A DNA stretch of 64,000 bases from Escherichia coli (GTDB lineage: Bacteria > Pseudomonadota > Gammaproteobacteria > Enterobacterales > Enterobacteriaceae), in the NCBI RefSeq assembly GCF_050320075.1, contig NZ_CP190018.1; one strand, given 5' to 3'. The position numbers are program-made. Of the stretch, positions 21,001 to 27,000 are shown piece by piece (the first letter of the stretch is position 1; each line of letters starts with the position of its first letter).

Positions 21001-24000
21001 TGATGTGGATACCGCAGCAGGCCGACTGAAACGCTATTACAAGTTTTACTCGAATGATGAGGTAAATGCGATCCGCAATAACGGCACAACTGACGGAAAA
21101 TGGCAGGCAAGTGCGATTATTGACAATGGGCATATCTGGGATGCGATGCCGGGCAGTTACTACAAAATGGGAGGAAACTGGCGTAAAGGCAGCTTTGATG
21201 ATCACCTGACGATTGAGGTGGAAAAGAACGGTAAGGGAAGCCGGGTCTATATCACCTATGCTTCAGCTTCTCAGGCGCATTTGCAGGCAAGTTCTCTTGA
21301 GCCTCTGTTTAAGCGAGTGAAGGATGTGGCTGAAGGAAAGGTTCGTTGATGAGCACGCCACGGGCAAGCCCTTATGGCTAAAGGAGAGGGAGATTGCCCG
21401 TGGCGGCCCACTTTTTTTAATCATTTTTTTACCATGTTGTCCAGTATTTTTACATAAGTGAAACATCTGGTGTTGTTTTCTGTTCATCGTGCTGGAAGTT
21501 ACAGGGCTTGTAATTGAACGGGGAGAGATGTAATTTACGTGCGCAAAAATTTTACTCAAGGGGGAGAAAACCGATGAAACCGAATATCCATCCTGAATAC
21601 CGTACTGTGGTGTTCCACGATACCAGTATCGATGAGTACTATAAAATTGGTTCGACCATCAAGACTGAACGTGTGATTGAGCTTGATGGTGTCACCTATC
21701 CGTACGTAACAATTGATGTTTCCTCTAAGTCGCATCCTTTCTACACTGGCAAACTGAGAACTGTTGCTTCAGAAGGTAACGTGGCGCGCTTTAACCAGCG
21801 TTTCGGTCGTTTTGTTGACACCAAAAAAGGCGCATGAGCAGAAATCGATCACAGGCGCGATTGATATGGAAAGGTATTGCATGAGTGTCTGAGGTCGGTT
21901 ATTTTACGTTTCACAAGAAAGAAGCACTTAAACAGAAACTCACAGTCCATATTCCTTCATCCCCGGTTACGGGGATTTTTTTTAGCTGTTGTCTGGGGAG
22001 GGAAGGGGGCTGTGTCGGGCTGGGAGCTGTAAGGCTGCGATTGTCCGGGTGATGTCTGAACATGCGGTATGTTTGCGTTAAACAAGGGGGGAGTATGTGG
22101 ATACTGATTTTCTGGCTTTCAACACCATATTCAGTGTCATCCAGTGTTGCCAGACAACCAACGCTTGCTGTTCATTCTCAGGAGTTCGCCAGCGAAAGGG
22201 CCTGCAGGAATGCGCTGGCTGAGATGAAGAAGGTGAATGTCGGAGAACTGACCCTGAGGGGGATCTGTGTCTCAAAAGAATAGTGGGGTAGAGGGAGCGA
22301 ACCAGGCTGTTTTATCAGGATGTGATTCTGGAGAGTCCGCTCGCCGCAGTCCGGCGACCGAACGGTAGTGAGCGAGCGGACGAGGAAGCGGAACGTCACA
22401 GTTCTTTCATAATGCACCTACGCTGTGTGGTTACATGGGTAAAGGATGAATATCACCATTCTATATCTGTTTCTGAAAAACAGTTTCGCTTGTTGCCTGT
22501 CATTGCCGGCTGGCGTTAGCATACAGAGGCGGTATTATCCCCTGTGATATTACGGGTTATTTTGTTTTGCTCTGTAAGACCTGGCCAGCTATTATGCTGG
22601 CCTTTTTTGTGGTTTATTGTTCGCAGTCCAGCATTGCAAATAATTTTCGTTTCTGTTCCTTCACATACTCAACATCAACAGTACAATCCAGATAACTTAA
22701 CTCATCTTCTGTCCAGGCATTGATGGATTCTTTTATTCGGTGTGTCACATCCGGTGTGAGTATGTCGCGCATTTTCTCAATGGTATCCCGGCTTATTTCT
22801 CCTCGTGGAGATTCAAGCAGAGGAATTACTGCCTGATGTCCCGGAGGGAGTATAAGACGTAATTCATATTTAAGTGTTTCGTTGAGTAAACGACAGAAAG
22901 CACTGTATTTCTCTTTCCGGGTACTGTTCATCGTTTATTCCTTCTCATTACTGTGCATGGTGTAAGATTAAAGCGTTTTGCAAAAGATGTACAAGTTGTT
23001 TTTATCCGGATTTAATATCATGGACTCACTTTTCTTTTGTGTCAGTGGGTACTGCATTGTTTATTAGCCACGGCAATTGTTGATTACCCTGTATTTTTCG
23101 GATGTAGTTATCAATAATATCTTTTGTTTCATCACTATTATTATAAAAAGATTCAAGTGTGCATATAAAATCATCATTTAATGCAGGTAGCAGGATTATG
23201 TTTTTTACTGTGAACCTGATATGACGATTACTCAGTGTTTTTAAATAAAGTTTCTTTCCAATAACAGGATTTACATTGAAAATATTGTAACAGATTTCCA
23301 CTGTGTTTTCTGAAGGTGCGTATAATACGTATACCGGATATTTTTTATGAAGTTTTATCAGGCAATTTATAAAGTCTAAGGAATTTGTTTGTTTTGCTTT
23401 TTCTCGCATCTTATTTACGTGTTGCGAAAAGAAATATGCTTTTGTAAATATAAAAAGAAAAATAAGCGCAGTGTTTAACAGAAATGTGATGGCAATTGTT
23501 ATAAATAACCATTTACCTGAACCTGTATTAAAGATATGGGATGAAAGATACCCACCTGTCAGCAACAAAAATATAAATAATAATGACTGCATTTTTTCCT
23601 GGTTGTTTATTGATGATTTCAGACACAGAAATATAACAACACATGCAAAGCTCCAGAAAAATATAACAGCAAAATCCATATTATCACCTTTTGTCTGACA
23701 GTTCATTTGTTGATGCTATCACGATATTCGCGATGCGGTAAATATATCAATATGTTGGTTTATTTGTGTAATACATTATTTCCCATATGCCATAAATCAG
23801 TCTGTTGACGATAGCTTTTTTCTTTTGTTATTCTGTTCCCGCATTAACTGTCGCTTCGGCGACCAACCAATCTCCCGGTGGTCTGAGAGGGAGGCTTACG
23901 CGACCACACTGTCATCTCAGGATGACCAGCCAATGTTCCGGCAGTCTGAGAGGAGCGCCTTCGGGTGACTGCAATATCCCATGAGCCTGGAAGAGGATGC

Positions 24001-27000
24001 CTATATGGCGGCAACATCCGTTTAGCCTCTGGAAACGGATGTCACCAGTAGCTGGTGACTGAGGTACGTTATTTTTACCTTCGGATTACCCGTACGGTTT
24101 TGTATGTCATGAAACTTACGAGTTTTCCTCTCGCAGAGTGGCGAAATGCCTTATATATCTGCGTCTTAAAGATTTTCTGTCTGGCTGCATGAGCTTCTTG
24201 TGACTGTGCGCACGGCATAAGGCCATTTGAAATTTGGCTGCTTGCGTGTGTACGTGGAGTCTGAAGCTGTGCGGCGTCACTTGCGTGCGACCGGAGGGAA
24301 CACCAAGTGACGCCACAACAATCTGCCCTGAAAGCAGCATCACGTAAGGCCTGCCAGAAAATCGTCGCTCGTGACCAGCGTTCTGATGACCGTTTTGTCT
24401 TTCTGACAGCGTCTTTCAGTAACGTGTCCATGCCTTTCCGGCGCGTCCGTTTTCACGGACGGCCACGCCGGAATGTCTTTTTAAACTTCATAATACATGA
24501 GAGGTAAGTGTATTAACTTGTTGAAAAAAGGAATAAATATGAAAAATCGTTCTGATGTCGGAAGGCGTCATCGTAAGATGACGGGGAGTAAAAAATCGCC
24601 CTGGTGCACAGGTAGCGAACTCCTGTAAAAACTCAACATGTGCAAGCTCTGCTACATCAACATCAAACGAGCCAGGAAGGCGAGCAACCGCGTTACAGAG
24701 CCGTCCGTGATGACGAAAAACTAACAATATCAACGATCTGGTCTGTTTATCGGAAGGGCATCTCATGCAGTTGAACTTTCAGAACGGATGGTTTTCTGCA
24801 TCTTTTTTAACAGGGGGATTGACGTTATGTCCCGTAAATCGTCACGTTCCAAAGTTGAAGTCTTTCGCAAGTCATTCATCTCACTTGCCCGTGATTGTGG
24901 TGGCAGCTACGCAACAACCGCTGACAGAATGCGAATTGCCAGATACTTTTTGAATTATTTGCAAGTAAACGGTATCAAACTTCGTCAGACGGGCAGTATT
25001 AAGACGAGGCATATTTCTGGTTATCTTCTCAGCAGGAAAGAGCAGGGGATCTCTCACCGCACAATTCAGAATGAACGGGCAGTTATGCGCGCAATTCTGG
25101 AGAAAGATGGTCGCCTTAAAATAGCGGATCCGTCCAATCCTTTATTGAGCAATGAAGCTCTTGGACTCAGGGATACATGCCGTGATGGTAAAAAGATACC
25201 ACTCTCACAGGATGAGTTTAATAAAGCCTTCAGTAAGGTTGAAAAAAATAATCCCGGTGTTGCTGCAGTAATGCAACTTTCTTATGTTCTTGGACTGAGG
25301 ACAAAAGAAGCTGTTCAGTCTTGTAAATCAGTTAACTCGTGGCTACGTGAACTTGATTCAGGGCATGATTCTCTTCTCGTTGTTTTTGGGACGAAAGGTG
25401 GAAGGCCCAGAGATACAACGATCATTAATCGTGATGCAGTGAAACATGCGCTCATTTATGCAAAAAACATTATGGATAAACAGAATGGTAAACTTATCGA
25501 TCGCCCCAATATTAAACAGGCTATAAACGTATATCGTTACCATGTAAGAAAGGCTGGTTTATCTGGAGTGAAGGCACCACATAGTATGCGTTATCATTTT
25601 TCGCAGGAAGCAAGGCAGTTTTATCGAAAAAGTGGATATGGAGATAAAGAAATTTACGCAAGGGTTTCCATGGACCTTGGTCATGGTGACGGAAGAGGGC
25701 GTTATGTAAAACAGGTCTACTTTAAAGGCGCTGATGAGAGCTGATATTTAAAATGAATCCGGAGGATATGTGTTTTTCGCGAACTTATTAATTTCTGTAA
25801 TAAGAATTTCTGATGAACGATTACACATGCTCTCATTAAAGTATCCTATATGGCATTCATGGATGCGGCAATTTAGTTTTCTGGATAGCCATCTGTTTGC
25901 CTCGTTACGGGATATATTTGTTTTTTGCTGATAGCTGTCAAAAAGTTTACGAACTTGTGCTCTGAGTATTCTCAAATTTTCTTTAGCTGGAGTACCTAAT
26001 GGTCTCCCTGAATTTTTATGACATCCAACCTATGCATTGCATGGGCTGCAAATCCAGTAATATTTGTTTTCTGTAGTGGGTGTCGAGGAAAATGGCATAA
26101 GTGCACCTTTTCTGAGTTGTGCCTTATTACCACAGTAAGTGCAGATTACAATTGGACGAACATCTGCAATATTCAGTGCTGCATAAGTCAGACGTTCATT
26201 TTTCATCATGTTTCGTTTTCCACAGTCAGTGAGAATATGCTTTATTGTGTCTAATTCTTCTCGGAGTATTTTTGAACGGACACCAGTTCGATAACGCTGT
26301 TGAAAGTAAAGCTCAATATGACGTAGTTTTATACTATTTATTGATTTTATCTGTATATTGGATTCTTAAAGAAATGAAGCAAATCTTCTGGCTCTCCCCA
26401 TATATACCAGTATGTCTTCTGGTGTCGGGGCGCATGCTTTAGCTATTTTTGATTAGTTCATCTTTTAATTTTTTGTATTTCGATTTCATCCTGATATTTC
26501 TCTTTAAGGTTCATTAAGAGTGTTACTGAGTAAAAAAATATCAAATTAAGTATTTATTGTCATTCAGTTGTAGCTTCTCAGCAGCTCCACGACAATAACA
26601 ACTTGAAGTTTTATGCAGTTTGTGCTTACAATTTAAACGCTAACTTGTCGCTTCGGCGACCAACCAATCTCCCGGTGGTCTGAGAGGGAGGCTTACGCGA
26701 CCACACTGTCATCTTCGGATGACCAGCCAATGTTCCAGCAGTCTGAGAGGAGCGCCTTCGGGTGACTGCCAGCTAATGTTTCAGCGATCTGAGAGAAACG
26801 CCTTCGGGTGATTGCAATATCCTCGTAGCCTGAAAGGGGATGCCTTTATGGCGGTACATCCGTTTAGCCTCTGGAAACGGATATCACCACTGGTGATTGA
26901 GGTACGTTACTACCAATACCGGATTTATCGGTTACATTTCTTAATTAACTCTGCTGGCTGTATTGTCACCAGTCAGCATTACCTGACGGATTTTCCAGTC

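What the first reader, a model, noticed from the sequence alone, without database searches (positions are those of the whole stretch)
23844..26908. Two direct copies of a hairpin-rich structured repeat flank a recombinase module
Copies at 23844-24070 and 26641-26908 share a UUCG-type hairpin and then two or three tandem units of about 48 nt. The unit stems differ in sequence but keep pairing (gtggtc/gaccac, gcagtc/gactgc, gcgatc/gattgc with a G-U wobble), which points to selection on RNA or DNA structure. I could not assign this to a known family.
Basis: seen in the sequence. Interest (0 to 1): 0.8.

Follow-up and report, generated by a model that had tools for sequence, protein, structure and literature searches.

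The report
Two STAXI RNA leaders in an ICE
The two repeats are copies of STAXI, a structured RNA motif catalogued in 2010 whose function is still unknown; here each copy begins its own transcription unit inside a conjugative element of E. coli, so they are not the ends of a mobile recombinase cassette.

Summary
Both copies match Rfam STAXI (RF01728; 89 and 138 bits, threshold 40.5), and an EFASI RNA (RF02957) lies between them, upstream of an Integrase_1-family tyrosine recombinase.

The window is an ICE at tRNA-Phe in E. coli. Across 106 loci from Enterobacterales, STAXI arrays sit just downstream of conserved sigma-70 promoters. They are co-oriented with, and at fixed distances from, three kinds of downstream unit: hairpin–EFASI–integrase, the antirestriction operon, and STY4534-family ICE replication genes. 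Covariation, G·U over A·C (47:11) and UUCG loops (111/121 units) show the sense strand is the functional one, most likely as RNA.

I found no empty site in 5,426 E. coli genomes. Copy 2 is the leader of the next operon, not a cassette end.

Best reading: a promoter-proximal cis-acting leader RNA. How it acts is inferred, not shown.

Possibly new (I did not check the motif papers' supplementary data): an invariant hairpin between STAXI and EFASI, and the STAXI–hairpin–EFASI block without integrase on five small plasmids. This resembles the SGI1 mobilisation module.

The parts
23805..23834 (+). Promoter-like site P1 (TTGACG-N18-TATTCT) just upstream of STAXI copy 1
   Evidence: Consensus scan. 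The count of such sites is not significant within the window alone. However, the same TTGACG-N17/18-TAnnnT sits at the same position in other genera. The strict pattern occurs in 33 of 121 arrays, against 0.57% of random 140-nt windows.
23845..24071 (+). STAXI copy 1: UUCG hairpin, pseudoknot unit, second hairpin, pseudoknot unit, degenerate unit, 3' pseudoknot domain
   Evidence: Rfam RF01728 at 23910-24069, 89.1 bits, E 2e-17. Direct repeat with copy 2. Sequence read.
24064..24103 (+). Tail of copy 1: hairpin GTACG...CGTAC followed by GGTTTTG, terminator-like
   Evidence: Read from the sequence; the scan tool did not call it because the loop is long. Allelic tails in relatives look like clearer terminators, for example CCGGATTTCGTCCGG plus a T-run, and GCCCTTTATTAACGGGCTTTTTCTG. 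Inference.
24270..24317 (+). Invariant hairpin: arms GCGTCACTTG / CAAGTGACGC enclosing a mini-hairpin with a GNA-type triloop (CC-GGA-GG)
   Evidence: Inverted repeat I6. The pattern occurs once in the window with 0 expected, and once in each of the 7 fetched loci that match it exactly. The inner arms are invariant across E. coli, Pantoea and Rahnella while the outer stem covaries. It follows 44 of 122 arrays, at a median of 332 nt after the last unit.
24438..24482 (+). GC-rich hairpin CCGGCGCGTCCG...CGGACGGCCACGCCGG followed by a T-run, inside the spacer
   Evidence: Read from the sequence. Conserved in the E. coli relatives, with compensatory changes in L003. Function inferred: an internal terminator or a processing site.
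24547..24669 (+). EFASI RNA
   Evidence: Rfam RF02957, 70.7 bits against a gathering score of 51.2, E 4e-12. It ends 157 nt before the integrase start codon.
24827..25744 (+). Tyrosine recombinase of the Integrase_1 family (305 aa); not the ICE's own integrase
   Evidence: Pfam PF12835 (5.7e-53) plus PF12834 (1.1e-22). R158, K190, H252, R255, H286 and Y293/Y298 are invariant in 13 homologs of 53-68% identity. 1,585 homologs, none with a functional name among the 120 listed. The ICE integrase lies next to tRNA-Phe, after UvrD-TraI.
25748..26356 (-). Remnants of a zinc-finger-containing gene, split into two ORFs here
   Evidence: Annotated as two short CDS in the identical record. Intact at 243-246 aa in L002 and L006.
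26603..26632 (+). Promoter-like site P2 (TTGAAG-N18-TACAAT) just upstream of STAXI copy 2
   Evidence: The same sequence sits upstream of copy 2 in L002 and L006. Related non-hairpin arrays in other genera carry TTGACA-N17-TAAAAT at that position.
26641..26909 (+). STAXI copy 2: as copy 1, with one extra 46-nt pseudoknot unit
   Evidence: Rfam RF01728 at 26707-26860, 138.1 bits, E 9e-30. TRF period 46.
26918..26942 (+). Tail of copy 2: terminator-like hairpin ACCGGATTTATCGGT followed by TACATTTCTT
   Evidence: Terminator-like site in the scan. The count of such sites in the region is not above expectation.
26982..27441 (+). Conserved hairpin CCTGACGGA...TCCGTCAGG, Shine-Dalgarno GGAGG, and the first gene led by copy 2 (133 aa, 27040-27441), followed by the operon that contains ardA (28399-28908)
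   Evidence: Homology between STAXI alleles resumes at 26981. Homologs of the 133-aa protein follow 13 non-hairpin arrays in other genera. It has no Pfam or NCBIfam match. ArdA annotation.

Best explanation
Identity (near certain). The two repeats are STAXI RNA elements (Rfam RF01728) inside an integrative conjugative element (ICE) of the TIGR037xx type inserted at tRNA-Phe in E. coli.

Architecture (well supported). Each copy begins at the start of its own transcription unit, directly downstream of a sigma-70 promoter. Copy 1 heads a non-coding stretch of about 1 kb (STAXI, an invariant hairpin, EFASI RNA) followed by an Integrase_1-family tyrosine recombinase. Copy 2 heads the next operon, which begins with a 133-aa protein and includes the ArdA antirestriction gene. 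The copies flank the recombinase only because two STAXI-led units lie side by side.

Mechanism (inferred). STAXI is transcribed and folds as it is made into a tandem array of H-type pseudoknots. It then acts in cis as a promoter-proximal leader that sets how much transcript or protein is produced from the genes behind it. I think it most likely does this by binding a factor shared by all the STAXI-led operons, or RNA polymerase itself. That binding would control read-through of the terminator-like tail and of the long untranslated stretch, and in other operons the opening of a masked ribosome-binding site. The stable 5' fragment would then accumulate and be detected as a small RNA of about 230 nt.
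For: Identity: Rfam scores of 138 and 89 bits against a threshold of 40.5, with EFASI between the copies. The published description matches: tandem pseudoknots near ssb, topoisomerase, antirestriction and integrase genes (PMC2864571), and EFASI lying downstream of STAXI and upstream of integrases (Rfam text quoted in PMC12370729).

Functional strand and RNA. Over 121 distinct units, UUCG loops occur in 111, and outer-stem G.U outnumbers A.C by 47 to 11. The inner G.U is present in 112 of 121 and is otherwise G-C or A-U. Pseudoknot pairing is perfect in 70% of units against 33% with swapped partners. RNA has been detected in Pectobacterium by RNA-seq (228-nt species; PMC4710047) and in E. coli by RT-qPCR.

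Promoter-proximal position. TTGACG-N17/18-TAnnnT or TTGACA-N17-TAAAAT lies just before the first hairpin in genera whose flanks are otherwise diverged. The strict pattern is found in 33 of 121 arrays against 0.57% of background windows. Both E. coli plasmid captures of the unit begin at or just upstream (within about 15 nt) of the STAXI start and have a promoter-like sequence there.

Cis geometry. Int homologs are co-oriented with an array upstream in 50 of 56 cases (median 834 nt). STY4534-family genes are so in 19 of 20 cases (median 263 nt). In the STY4534 leaders the space is filled by conserved hairpins and an anti-SD/SD helix (UUUCUCC/GGAGAAA), which leaves no obvious room for another promoter. 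A single genome can carry several arrays in front of different operons, for example five stretches in Serratia marcescens 106R, as is usual for cis-regulatory leaders.

Arrangement conserved. STAXI-EFASI-int-X-STAXI recurs in L002, L003, L006 and L007 and in 16 paired loci from other genera.
Against: No experiment shows what STAXI does, so the cis mechanism rests on position and anatomy only. The terminator-like tails are weak and not universal; the STY4534 leaders have none. Terminator-like and promoter-like sites in the window are no more frequent than in shuffled sequence. MFE z-scores are not significant.

The non-coding STAXI-hairpin-EFASI block persists on small plasmids without any downstream gene. 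At least that unit therefore has a function of its own, which could be in trans or at the DNA level, beyond regulating the integrase. Detection as a discrete RNA of about 228 nt, and in vesicles, fits a free sRNA equally well. No candidate binding factor has been identified.
Confidence: 0.55

Rival explanations
1. STAXI is a free, trans-acting small RNA. Its tandem pseudoknots act as a multivalent sponge or decoy for a protein of the host or of the ICE. Possible targets are an RNA-binding regulator or a defence nuclease. The logic is that of CsrB sponging CsrA, or of the phage pseudo-ToxI repeats that neutralise ToxN.
For: The unit number varies from 1 to 6 without loss of the element, as expected for additive binding sites. 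Terminator-like tails follow the arrays in the E. coli alleles. A discrete species of about 228 nt is seen in Pectobacterium RNA-seq. STAXI lies in anti-defence neighbourhoods with ArdA, ArdC and a DNA methylase. It is maintained on small plasmids that have no downstream gene to regulate.
Against: A sponge would not need to sit in front of several operons, always co-oriented and at fixed distances. It would also not need to be fused to leaders that mask a ribosome-binding site. No partner protein is known. There is no match to Rfam sponge or antitoxin families in the window.
Confidence: 0.22
2. The block STAXI - invariant hairpin - EFASI - Int is a mobilisation module of the SGI1 type. The hairpin region would be an origin of transfer, the tyrosine recombinase an atypical relaxase, and the RNA a required cofactor. 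Small plasmids carrying the block without Int would be transferred by ICE-encoded Int supplied in trans. In this reading STAXI is the 5' part of the primary transcript that yields the active RNA.
For: In SGI1, a promoter (ttgacg-16-taatat) drives a transcript that passes a terminator-like repeat about 66 nt from its start, then oriT, and ends in the essential sgm-sRNA core just upstream of mpsA, a tyrosine-recombinase-like relaxase (PMC9299015; PMC6414798). MobK of pIGRK is another such relaxase, with its oriT in the intergenic region before the gene (PMC8152469). The order here is the same. The hairpin has sequence-invariant inner arms, a covarying outer stem and a GNA triloop. The block lies on five small plasmids of at least two replicon types (Rep_1 rolling-circle and ColE1-like), none with an integrase or mob gene. 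Two independent E. coli captures both stop short of int, at window 24733 and 24819. Three of the four E. coli records that hold the block (p3, its twin, and one 5.3-kb plasmid) come from the two strains that also carry this ICE. The roughly 2.1-kb relatives of p3 in 354 genomes lack the block.
Against: There is no sequence homology to SGI1 and no experiment. Int has its own N-terminal SAM-like core-binding domain, whereas MpsA, MobK and TcpM are described as lacking one. The ICE already has a MOBH TraI relaxase. Co-occurrence in two strains may only reflect recent capture from the resident ICE, given 99.3-99.4% identity. MOB-suite types four of the five plasmids as non-mobilizable. This reading does not explain STAXI in front of other operons.
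Confidence: 0.2
3. The two STAXI copies are recombination sites (att-like or attC-like) for the adjacent recombinase. The 2.8-kb unit would then be a cassette that excises and inserts.
For: The copies are direct repeats flanking a tyrosine recombinase gene. In the E. coli elements the two copies of one element are 98-100% identical although the elements themselves differ by 17-24%. Near-identical ICE backbones carry different STAXI alleles at both positions. Plasmid p3 carries the junction expected from recombination between the copies: copy-2 upstream sequence, one STAXI, copy-1 downstream sequence.
Against: No empty site was found in 5,426 genomes. In other genera the paired copies are only 57-87% alike, and the same-locus partner is the best match in 3 of 16. 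Many arrays have no recombinase nearby and lead STY4534 or antirestriction operons. Promoters and tails are specific to each position and lie outside the repeat. L006 has the window's int module (97% identical) but a different STAXI allele, so site and enzyme do not co-vary. Homogenisation and the p3 junction are explained by ordinary homologous recombination between 230-270-nt direct repeats.
Confidence: 0.04
4. STAXI works as folded single-stranded DNA: a single-strand origin or priming signal, or a single-strand promoter. It would act when the ICE or a rolling-circle plasmid is single-stranded.
For: The original authors raised this because of the DNA-handling neighbours. STAXI occurs on conjugative elements near ArdC and STY4534 replication genes, and on a rolling-circle plasmid (Rep_1, 4e-89). 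In all three ColE1-like plasmids, and in p3, it has one orientation relative to replication.
Against: The roughly 2.1-kb relatives of p3 replicate without it, so it is not that plasmid's single-strand origin. The strand supported by G.U over A.C (47:11) and by the invariant G.U is the one antisense to rep and to RNAII. By my inference from how these replicons replicate, that is the strand not displaced during replication. UUCG loops (111 of 121) are RNA-specific stabilisers. Conserved double-strand sigma-70 promoters precede the arrays. Pseudoknot covariation points to RNA tertiary folding.
Confidence: 0.04

Closest known systems
STAXI RNA motif (Rfam RF01728; Weinberg et al. 2010, Genome Biol 11:R31)
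   Same: Both copies match the covariance model over its full length, at 2-3 times the gathering score. They have tandem pseudoknot units with UUCG loops, an Enterobacterales host, and antirestriction and integrase genes as neighbours.
   Different: Nothing defining differs. Here the array extends beyond the Rfam model at both ends, with an extra hairpin plus unit 5' of the model and a 3' pseudoknot domain. The two copies are homogenised within the element.
EFASI RNA motif (Rfam RF02957)
   Same: The element at 24547-24669 scores above threshold. It lies about 480 nt downstream of STAXI and 157 nt upstream of an integrase gene, as the family description states.
   Different: None. The invariant hairpin between STAXI and EFASI is not part of either Rfam match here.
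SGI1 mobilisation module (oriT, sgm-sRNA, MpsA/MpsB; Kiss 2019, Nagy 2021)
   Same: The order of parts is the same: a strong promoter, a structured terminator-like 5' region, a long non-coding transcript containing an inverted-repeat site, a functional RNA at the 3' end, and then a tyrosine-recombinase-family gene. In SGI1 the cis site can work on a plasmid if the island supplies the other factors in trans.
   Different: There is no detectable sequence relationship. Int here has its own core-binding-like N-terminal domain, whereas MpsA needs the separate MpsB. No transfer function has been shown here. SGI1 has no STAXI-type pseudoknot array.
Processive antitermination RNAs (HK022 put, Bacillus EAR)
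   Same: These are structured RNAs placed just downstream of promoters. More than one copy occurs per element, each heading a long operon, and they act in cis on the transcribing polymerase. EAR contains a pseudoknot. This comparison rests on my own knowledge.
   Different: No sequence or structural homology was tested or is known. put has two stem-loops, not a pseudoknot array. Antitermination by STAXI is a hypothesis only.
Type III toxin-antitoxin antitoxin RNAs (ToxI)
   Same: The layout is a promoter, tandem pseudoknot-forming repeats, a terminator, and a downstream gene. They occur on mobile elements of Enterobacterales. This comparison rests on my own knowledge.
   Different: ToxI repeats are near-identical 34-45-nt units cut by the adjacent toxin. 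STAXI units differ in sequence while keeping their pairing, no ToxN-like gene follows them, and the window has no match to that Rfam family.

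Membership tests
STAXI (RF01728) | Covariance-model score at or above Rfam's gathering score (40.5 bits) | tested here: met
   138.1 bits (26707-26860) and 89.1 bits (23910-24069), both covering model positions 1-153.
STAXI (RF01728) | [quoted passage not shown] | tested here: met
   Copy 1 has two canonical units plus a degenerate one; copy 2 has three. The pseudoknot 5-mers pair with the bulge in each unit, and covariation holds across 121 units.
STAXI (RF01728) | Located near genes for ssDNA-binding, topoisomerase, antirestriction or integrase proteins, in Enterobacterales | tested here: met
   Integrase_1 gene 757 nt downstream of copy 1. ardA lies 1.5 kb downstream of copy 2. 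The host is E. coli.
STAXI (RF01728) | Transcribed as RNA | not testable with these tools
   No expression data exist for this strain. Indirect support comes from the conserved promoters and from published detection in Pectobacterium and in STEC.
EFASI (RF02957) | Score at or above the gathering score (51.2 bits), located downstream of STAXI and upstream of an integrase gene | tested here: met
   70.7 bits at 24547-24669. The same order holds in L002, L003 and L006 and in 41 arrays of the 106-locus survey.
Mobile cassette bounded by recombination sites (integron-like or small integrative element) | Presence/absence polymorphism: empty sites with a single copy of the repeat between the same flanks | tested here: not met
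   A synthetic empty-site query found 0 of 756 matching records covering 80% or more, in 5,426 E. coli genomes. All relatives inspected have the module.
Mobile cassette bounded by recombination sites (integron-like or small integrative element) | The repeat is tied to the recombinase: found with it, and co-varying with it | tested here: not met
   56 arrays with adequate flank have no hairpin or EFASI; most of these lead other genes, though 13 arrays lacking an exact hairpin match do precede an Int homolog. L006 shares the int module at 97% identity but has a different STAXI allele.
Insertion-sequence terminal repeats | Terminal inverted repeats and a transposase within the unit | tested here: not met
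   The repeats are direct, not inverted. The only enzyme inside is a tyrosine recombinase of family PF12835.
Rolling-circle single-strand origin (sso) | Needed by the replicon that carries it, and placed on the displaced strand | tested here: not met
   The roughly 2.1-kb relatives of p3 in 354 genomes lack STAXI. The structure-supporting strand is antisense to rep.
Tyrosine-recombinase-type mobilisation module (SGI1 MpsA, pIGRK MobK, pCW3 TcpM) | Catalytic tyrosine-recombinase fold without its own core-binding domain; an oriT upstream of the gene | tested here: inconclusive
   The catalytic residues are invariant, but Int has an N-terminal SAM-like domain (PF12834), unlike MpsA, MobK and TcpM. 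A conserved hairpin lies upstream. Nicking and transfer cannot be tested here.
Type III toxin-antitoxin (ToxIN-like) | Near-identical tandem repeats followed by a terminator and an endoribonuclease toxin gene | tested here: not met
   The units differ in sequence: 33 distinct stems. The downstream genes are an integrase, a 133-aa protein of unknown family, or STY4534-family proteins. No ToxI match in Rfam.

The most novel reading that the evidence does not exclude
The non-coding block STAXI - invariant hairpin - EFASI is a portable transfer module. The hairpin would be an origin of transfer or processing site, and the RNAs would be cofactors. The adjacent Integrase_1 enzyme would act on it as an atypical relaxase, as MpsA and sgm-sRNA do in SGI1. 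Small plasmids that carry the block without the enzyme (E. coli p3 and pLH50-c-F, Pantoea pOC5aC, Rahnella pHW4594 and pHW30076) would then be minimal hitchers that ICEs of this family mobilise in trans. If so, two orphan Rfam motifs and an uncharacterised recombinase family with more than 1,500 members would gain a function, and the RNA-dependent tyrosine-recombinase relaxase system would extend beyond SGI1.
Probability: 0.2. Interest if true: 0.7.

Novelty: already known. Interest (0 to 1): 0.35.

Why it matters
The element itself is a textbook instance of two catalogued RNA motifs, so it does not need a new family. It matters for three smaller reasons.

First, STAXI has had no known function since 2010. 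The survey here narrows the options. It is a sense-strand element, most likely RNA, that begins transcripts of several ICE operons: integrase, antirestriction and replication genes. It is not a recombination site, and it is not the single-strand origin of plasmid p3.

Second, the natural small plasmids that carry only STAXI-hairpin-EFASI are ready-made minimal systems. They could be used to test whether the block serves transfer, establishment or regulation.

Third, these ICEs carry clinically relevant cargo (mcr-1 in this window, silver and copper resistance in SGI-4). Whatever controls their early genes bears on how such elements spread.

Tried and rejected
1. Empty site. A synthetic query (left flank, one STAXI, right flank) found none in 5,426 E. 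coli genomes. L005, an O157-type island with a single STAXI, looked like a candidate. It is copy 1 with its normal downstream spacer, cut by IS66.

2. Excised circle. The 3.1-kb 'plasmids' with a 99.3% identical STAXI looked like the excised module. They are Rep_1 rolling-circle plasmids that captured only the non-coding part.

3. Single-strand origin. Rejected because the 2.1-kb relatives lack STAXI and because of the strand evidence.

4. Universal concerted evolution. It is strong in E. coli (98-100%) but not general.

5. Thermodynamic support. The z-scores are not significant.

6. Promoter and terminator counts within the window are not above shuffles. Only the conservation across genera carries weight.

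7. cer/dif-like Xer core sites in the small plasmids: none found with a consensus pattern. The pattern may have been too strict.

8. Naming the recombinase. The NCBIfam search returned no family for Int. Pfam assigns only the generic Integrase_1/SAM_2 domains, and homolog names gave only 'integrase domain-containing' or 'DNA-binding protein'.

9. The 133-aa protein after copy 2 has no family match.

10. EFASI-STAXI base pairing. By eye there are at most about 6 bp (AACAUU/AAUGUU). I did not pursue it.

11. A SorX-like hit at 22538-22608 (28.6 bits against a threshold of 46.6) is treated as chance.

Full report
**1. The observation.**
- Segments 23849-23972 and 26646-26769 are 98% identical over 124 nt. 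The similarity continues, after one extra unit in copy 2, to 24071 / 26909.
- Tandem Repeats Finder gives a 46-nt period at 26723-26815.
- Reading further, each unit is an H-type pseudoknot. A 5-mer upstream of the stem pairs with the 5' bulge (CUCCC/GGGAG, GUUCC/GGAGC, GUUUC/GAAAC).
- Each copy ends in a separate 3' pseudoknot domain. Its loop-tail pairing also covaries between alleles (GCCUC/GAGGU against ACCUU/AAGGU).

**2. Identity.** A scan of the whole window against Rfam gives four matches:
- STAXI (RF01728) at 26707-26860 (138.1 bits) and at 23910-24069 (89.1 bits), with a gathering score of 40.5.
- EFASI (RF02957) at 24547-24669 (70.7 bits, threshold 51.2).
- A tRNA at 58129-58201.

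STAXI was described in 2010 as a pseudoknot repeated two or three times near genes for ssDNA-binding proteins, topoisomerases, antirestriction proteins and XerDC-type integrases. The authors considered a single-stranded DNA role but favoured RNA because of the UUCG loops (PMC2864571). EFASI is described as lying several hundred bases downstream of STAXI and upstream of integrase genes (Rfam text quoted in PMC12370729). The window shows exactly this arrangement. The ORF at 24827-25744 has Pfam domains Integrase_1 and Phage_int_SAM_2.

**3. Context.**
- The 3.6-kb region around the finding is 100% identical to part of the E. coli YZLc1-3 chromosome.
- The surroundings are an ICE of the TIGR037xx type. 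It runs from TraD through the type IV secretion genes to TraG-N, then the STAXI region, ArdA, LPD29, DUF1281, a type IV pilus cluster with a shufflon, UvrD, a MOBH TraI, an integrase and tRNA-Phe.
- The recombinase between the STAXI copies is therefore a third tyrosine recombinase, not the ICE integrase.
- Its catalytic residues are invariant in homologs of 53-68% identity.
- The family has 1,585 detected homologs across Enterobacterales, and none of the 120 listed has a functional name.

**4. Is the 2.8-kb unit a cassette?**
- The same order, STAXI-EFASI-int-X-STAXI, is found in ICEs that are 83% (L002) and 76% (L003) identical. It is also found in L006 and L007.
- A synthetic empty-site query found no record covering 80% or more of it in 5,426 complete E. 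coli genomes.
- In E. coli the two copies of one element are 98-100% identical, although the elements differ from one another.
- ICE backbones that are 95-99% identical carry different STAXI alleles at both positions. The breakpoints recur at window 23967/24144 and 26764/26981.
- The promoters upstream and the tails downstream are specific to each position and lie outside the repeat.
- I then scanned one genome per species for a STAXI unit pattern, which gave 106 loci, nearly all Enterobacterales. Sixteen of these loci have the pair, spaced 1.85-3.4 kb. In every pair the first copy is followed by the hairpin and the second is not.
- There the two copies are only 57-87% alike, and the same-locus partner is the best match in 3 of 16.

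Identity of the two copies is therefore a local effect, best explained by gene conversion between direct repeats. It is not a requirement of the system. Copy 2 is the leader of the next operon.

**5. Which strand, and RNA or DNA?** I extracted 121 distinct units from the 106 loci with a pattern that does not constrain the stems.
- The outer stem is 96% paired, against 76% when partners are swapped between units. There are 33 distinct stem sequences.
- G.U outnumbers A.C by 47 to 11.
- The inner pair is G.U in 112 units, G-C in 6 and A-U in 3.
- The loop is UUCG in 111 units.
- The pseudoknot pairs perfectly in 70% of units, against 33% with swapped partners.

All true units lie on one strand. 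The MFE is not better than shuffles on either strand. This is expected for pseudoknots and means that thermodynamics adds nothing.

**6. Position relative to transcription signals and genes.**
- Upstream of arrays that precede the hairpin, TTGACG-N17/18-TAnnnT lies just before the first hairpin of the array. This holds in Serratia, Erwinia, Xenorhabdus, Mixta, Rosenbergiella and others. The other arrays carry TTGACA-N17-TAAAAT.
- A strict pattern is present in 33 of 121 arrays, against 0.57% of random windows.
- Int homologs are co-oriented with an array upstream in 50 of 56 cases (median 834 nt).
- Genes of the 'STY4534 family ICE replication protein' (NF040584, 5e-58) are co-oriented in 19 of 20 cases (median 263 nt).
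- In the STY4534 leaders, conserved hairpins and an anti-SD/SD helix fill the interval, and there is no terminator.
- In the window, homology between alleles resumes at a related hairpin (26982-27007), followed by GGAGG and a 133-aa ORF.

Together with published RNA detection, this makes STAXI a promoter-proximal part of the transcripts of at least three operon types of this ICE family.

**7. An unexpected finding: small plasmids.** A search of plasmid records found the STAXI-EFASI pair on five small plasmids:
- E. coli p3 (3.1 kb)
- E. coli pLH50-c-F (5.3 kb)
- Pantoea pOC5aC
- Rahnella pHW4594
- Rahnella pHW30076

None has an annotated integrase or mob gene, and none matched Int in a tblastn search of plasmid records.
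- p3 has a Rep_1 rolling-circle initiator (4e-89). Its roughly 2.1-kb relatives in 354 genomes lack the block, so the block is cargo and not an origin.
- p3 carries window 26630-26909 joined to 24071-24733. This is copy-2 upstream sequence, one STAXI, then copy-1 downstream sequence. It is the junction expected from recombination between the two copies.
- pLH50-c-F carries 23848-24819 at 99.4% identity, stopping 8 nt before the int start codon.
- Both captures have a promoter-like sequence at the STAXI start.
- p3 and its twin occur in strains 64.1 and TUM9803, which also carry this ICE.

The non-coding unit therefore has a function that does not need int in cis.

**8. The invariant hairpin.** Aligning the STAXI-EFASI interval across genera shows one element that is conserved in sequence. 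Its arms are GCGTCACTTG and CAAGTGACGC. Its outer stem covaries. It has a central mini-hairpin with a GNA-type triloop. In the window it lies at 24270-24317.
- It occurs once in each of the 7 fetched loci that match the pattern exactly, and once in the window.
- It follows 44 of 122 arrays.
- Sequence-invariant arms suggest recognition by a protein. I cannot tell whether the target is DNA or RNA.

**9. Mechanism.** What is shown is the identity, the functional strand, the position at transcript starts, the fixed geometry, and the portability of the non-coding unit. The action itself is inferred.

My best reading (about 0.55) is a cis-acting leader RNA. It would set expression of the operons behind it by binding a shared factor or the polymerase. 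That binding would control read-through of the tail and of the long untranslated region, or the opening of a masked ribosome-binding site.

A free sponge or decoy RNA is the main rival (about 0.2). It overlaps with the cis-leader reading, because a stable 5' fragment could do both.

The block in front of int resembles the SGI1 mobilisation module. There, a primary transcript that starts at ttgacg-16-taatat passes a terminator-like repeat and oriT, and ends in an essential small RNA just upstream of a tyrosine-recombinase-type relaxase. MobK of pIGRK is a further precedent. This is the most novel reading the data allow (about 0.2). Against it:
- Int has its own core-binding-like domain.
- The ICE has a TraI relaxase.
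- Nothing has been tested.

The recombination-site and single-stranded-DNA readings are disfavoured by sections 4, 5 and 7.

**10. Verdict.** The finding is real and well described, but it is an instance of known motifs in their documented context. The remaining interest lies in STAXI's unknown function and in the testable leads found on the way.

Noticed in passing
window 33363-38111: A 4.75-kb insertion that is absent from the otherwise 96-99% identical ICE of strain VTB97420v. In the record identical over the finding region it is annotated as ISApl1 - mcr-1.1 - PAP2 - ISApl1, with an internal stop in one ISApl1 copy. This is a Tn6330-like colistin-resistance transposon inside the ICE, next to traF.
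   Followed up: partly
window 24270-24317: A hairpin with sequence-invariant arms (TCACTTG...CAAGTGA), a covarying outer stem and a central GNA-triloop mini-hairpin, lying between STAXI and EFASI. It is conserved in E. coli, Pantoea and Rahnella and follows 44 of 122 STAXI arrays. It lies outside both the STAXI and the EFASI Rfam matches.
   Followed up: yes
L009 (NZ_CP059920.1, 3140 bp), L010, L011, L012, L013: Five small plasmids (one Rep_1 rolling-circle, three ColE1-like, one of another replicon type) carry STAXI-hairpin-EFASI without any integrase or mob gene. The roughly 2.1-kb relatives of the rolling-circle plasmid in 354 E. coli genomes lack the block. p3 and its twin are in strains that also carry the ICE.
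   Followed up: yes
window 25748-26356 (minus strand): The zinc-finger-containing gene between int and STAXI copy 2 is split into two short ORFs here. It is intact (243-246 aa) in L002 and L006, so it is probably a pseudogene in this window. In L003 and L007 a different gene occupies this position.
   Followed up: partly
window 26982-27441: A conserved hairpin (CCTGACGGA...TCCGTCAGG), then GGAGG and a 133-aa arginine-rich ORF with no Pfam or NCBIfam match. Homologs of this ORF are the first gene after 13 other STAXI arrays. A similar hairpin plus an anti-SD/SD helix precedes STY4534-family genes in other genera.
   Followed up: partly
window 23967/24144 and 26764/26981: Breakpoints that recur between STAXI alleles in ICE backbones that are otherwise 95-99% identical. 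Both copies, with about 73 nt of their position-specific tails, are replaced together (allele A in the window, allele B in L002, L006 and L007, allele C in L003).
   Followed up: yes
window about 39.3-58.2 kb (approximate, from the annotated record): The ICE has three tyrosine recombinases: the Integrase_1 type in the STAXI module, an Rci-like one next to a pilV shufflon, and the integrase next to tRNA-Phe after UvrD and a MOBH TraI.
   Followed up: no
window 21514-21837: A type-B ribosomal protein L31 paralog (ykgM-like) is encoded inside the ICE. Relatives also have a Hok/Gef toxin gene here.
   Followed up: no
window 22538-22608: A weak SorX-like Rfam hit (28.6 bits against a gathering score of 46.6; E 0.002 in a 14-kb search). 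I treated it as chance.
   Followed up: no
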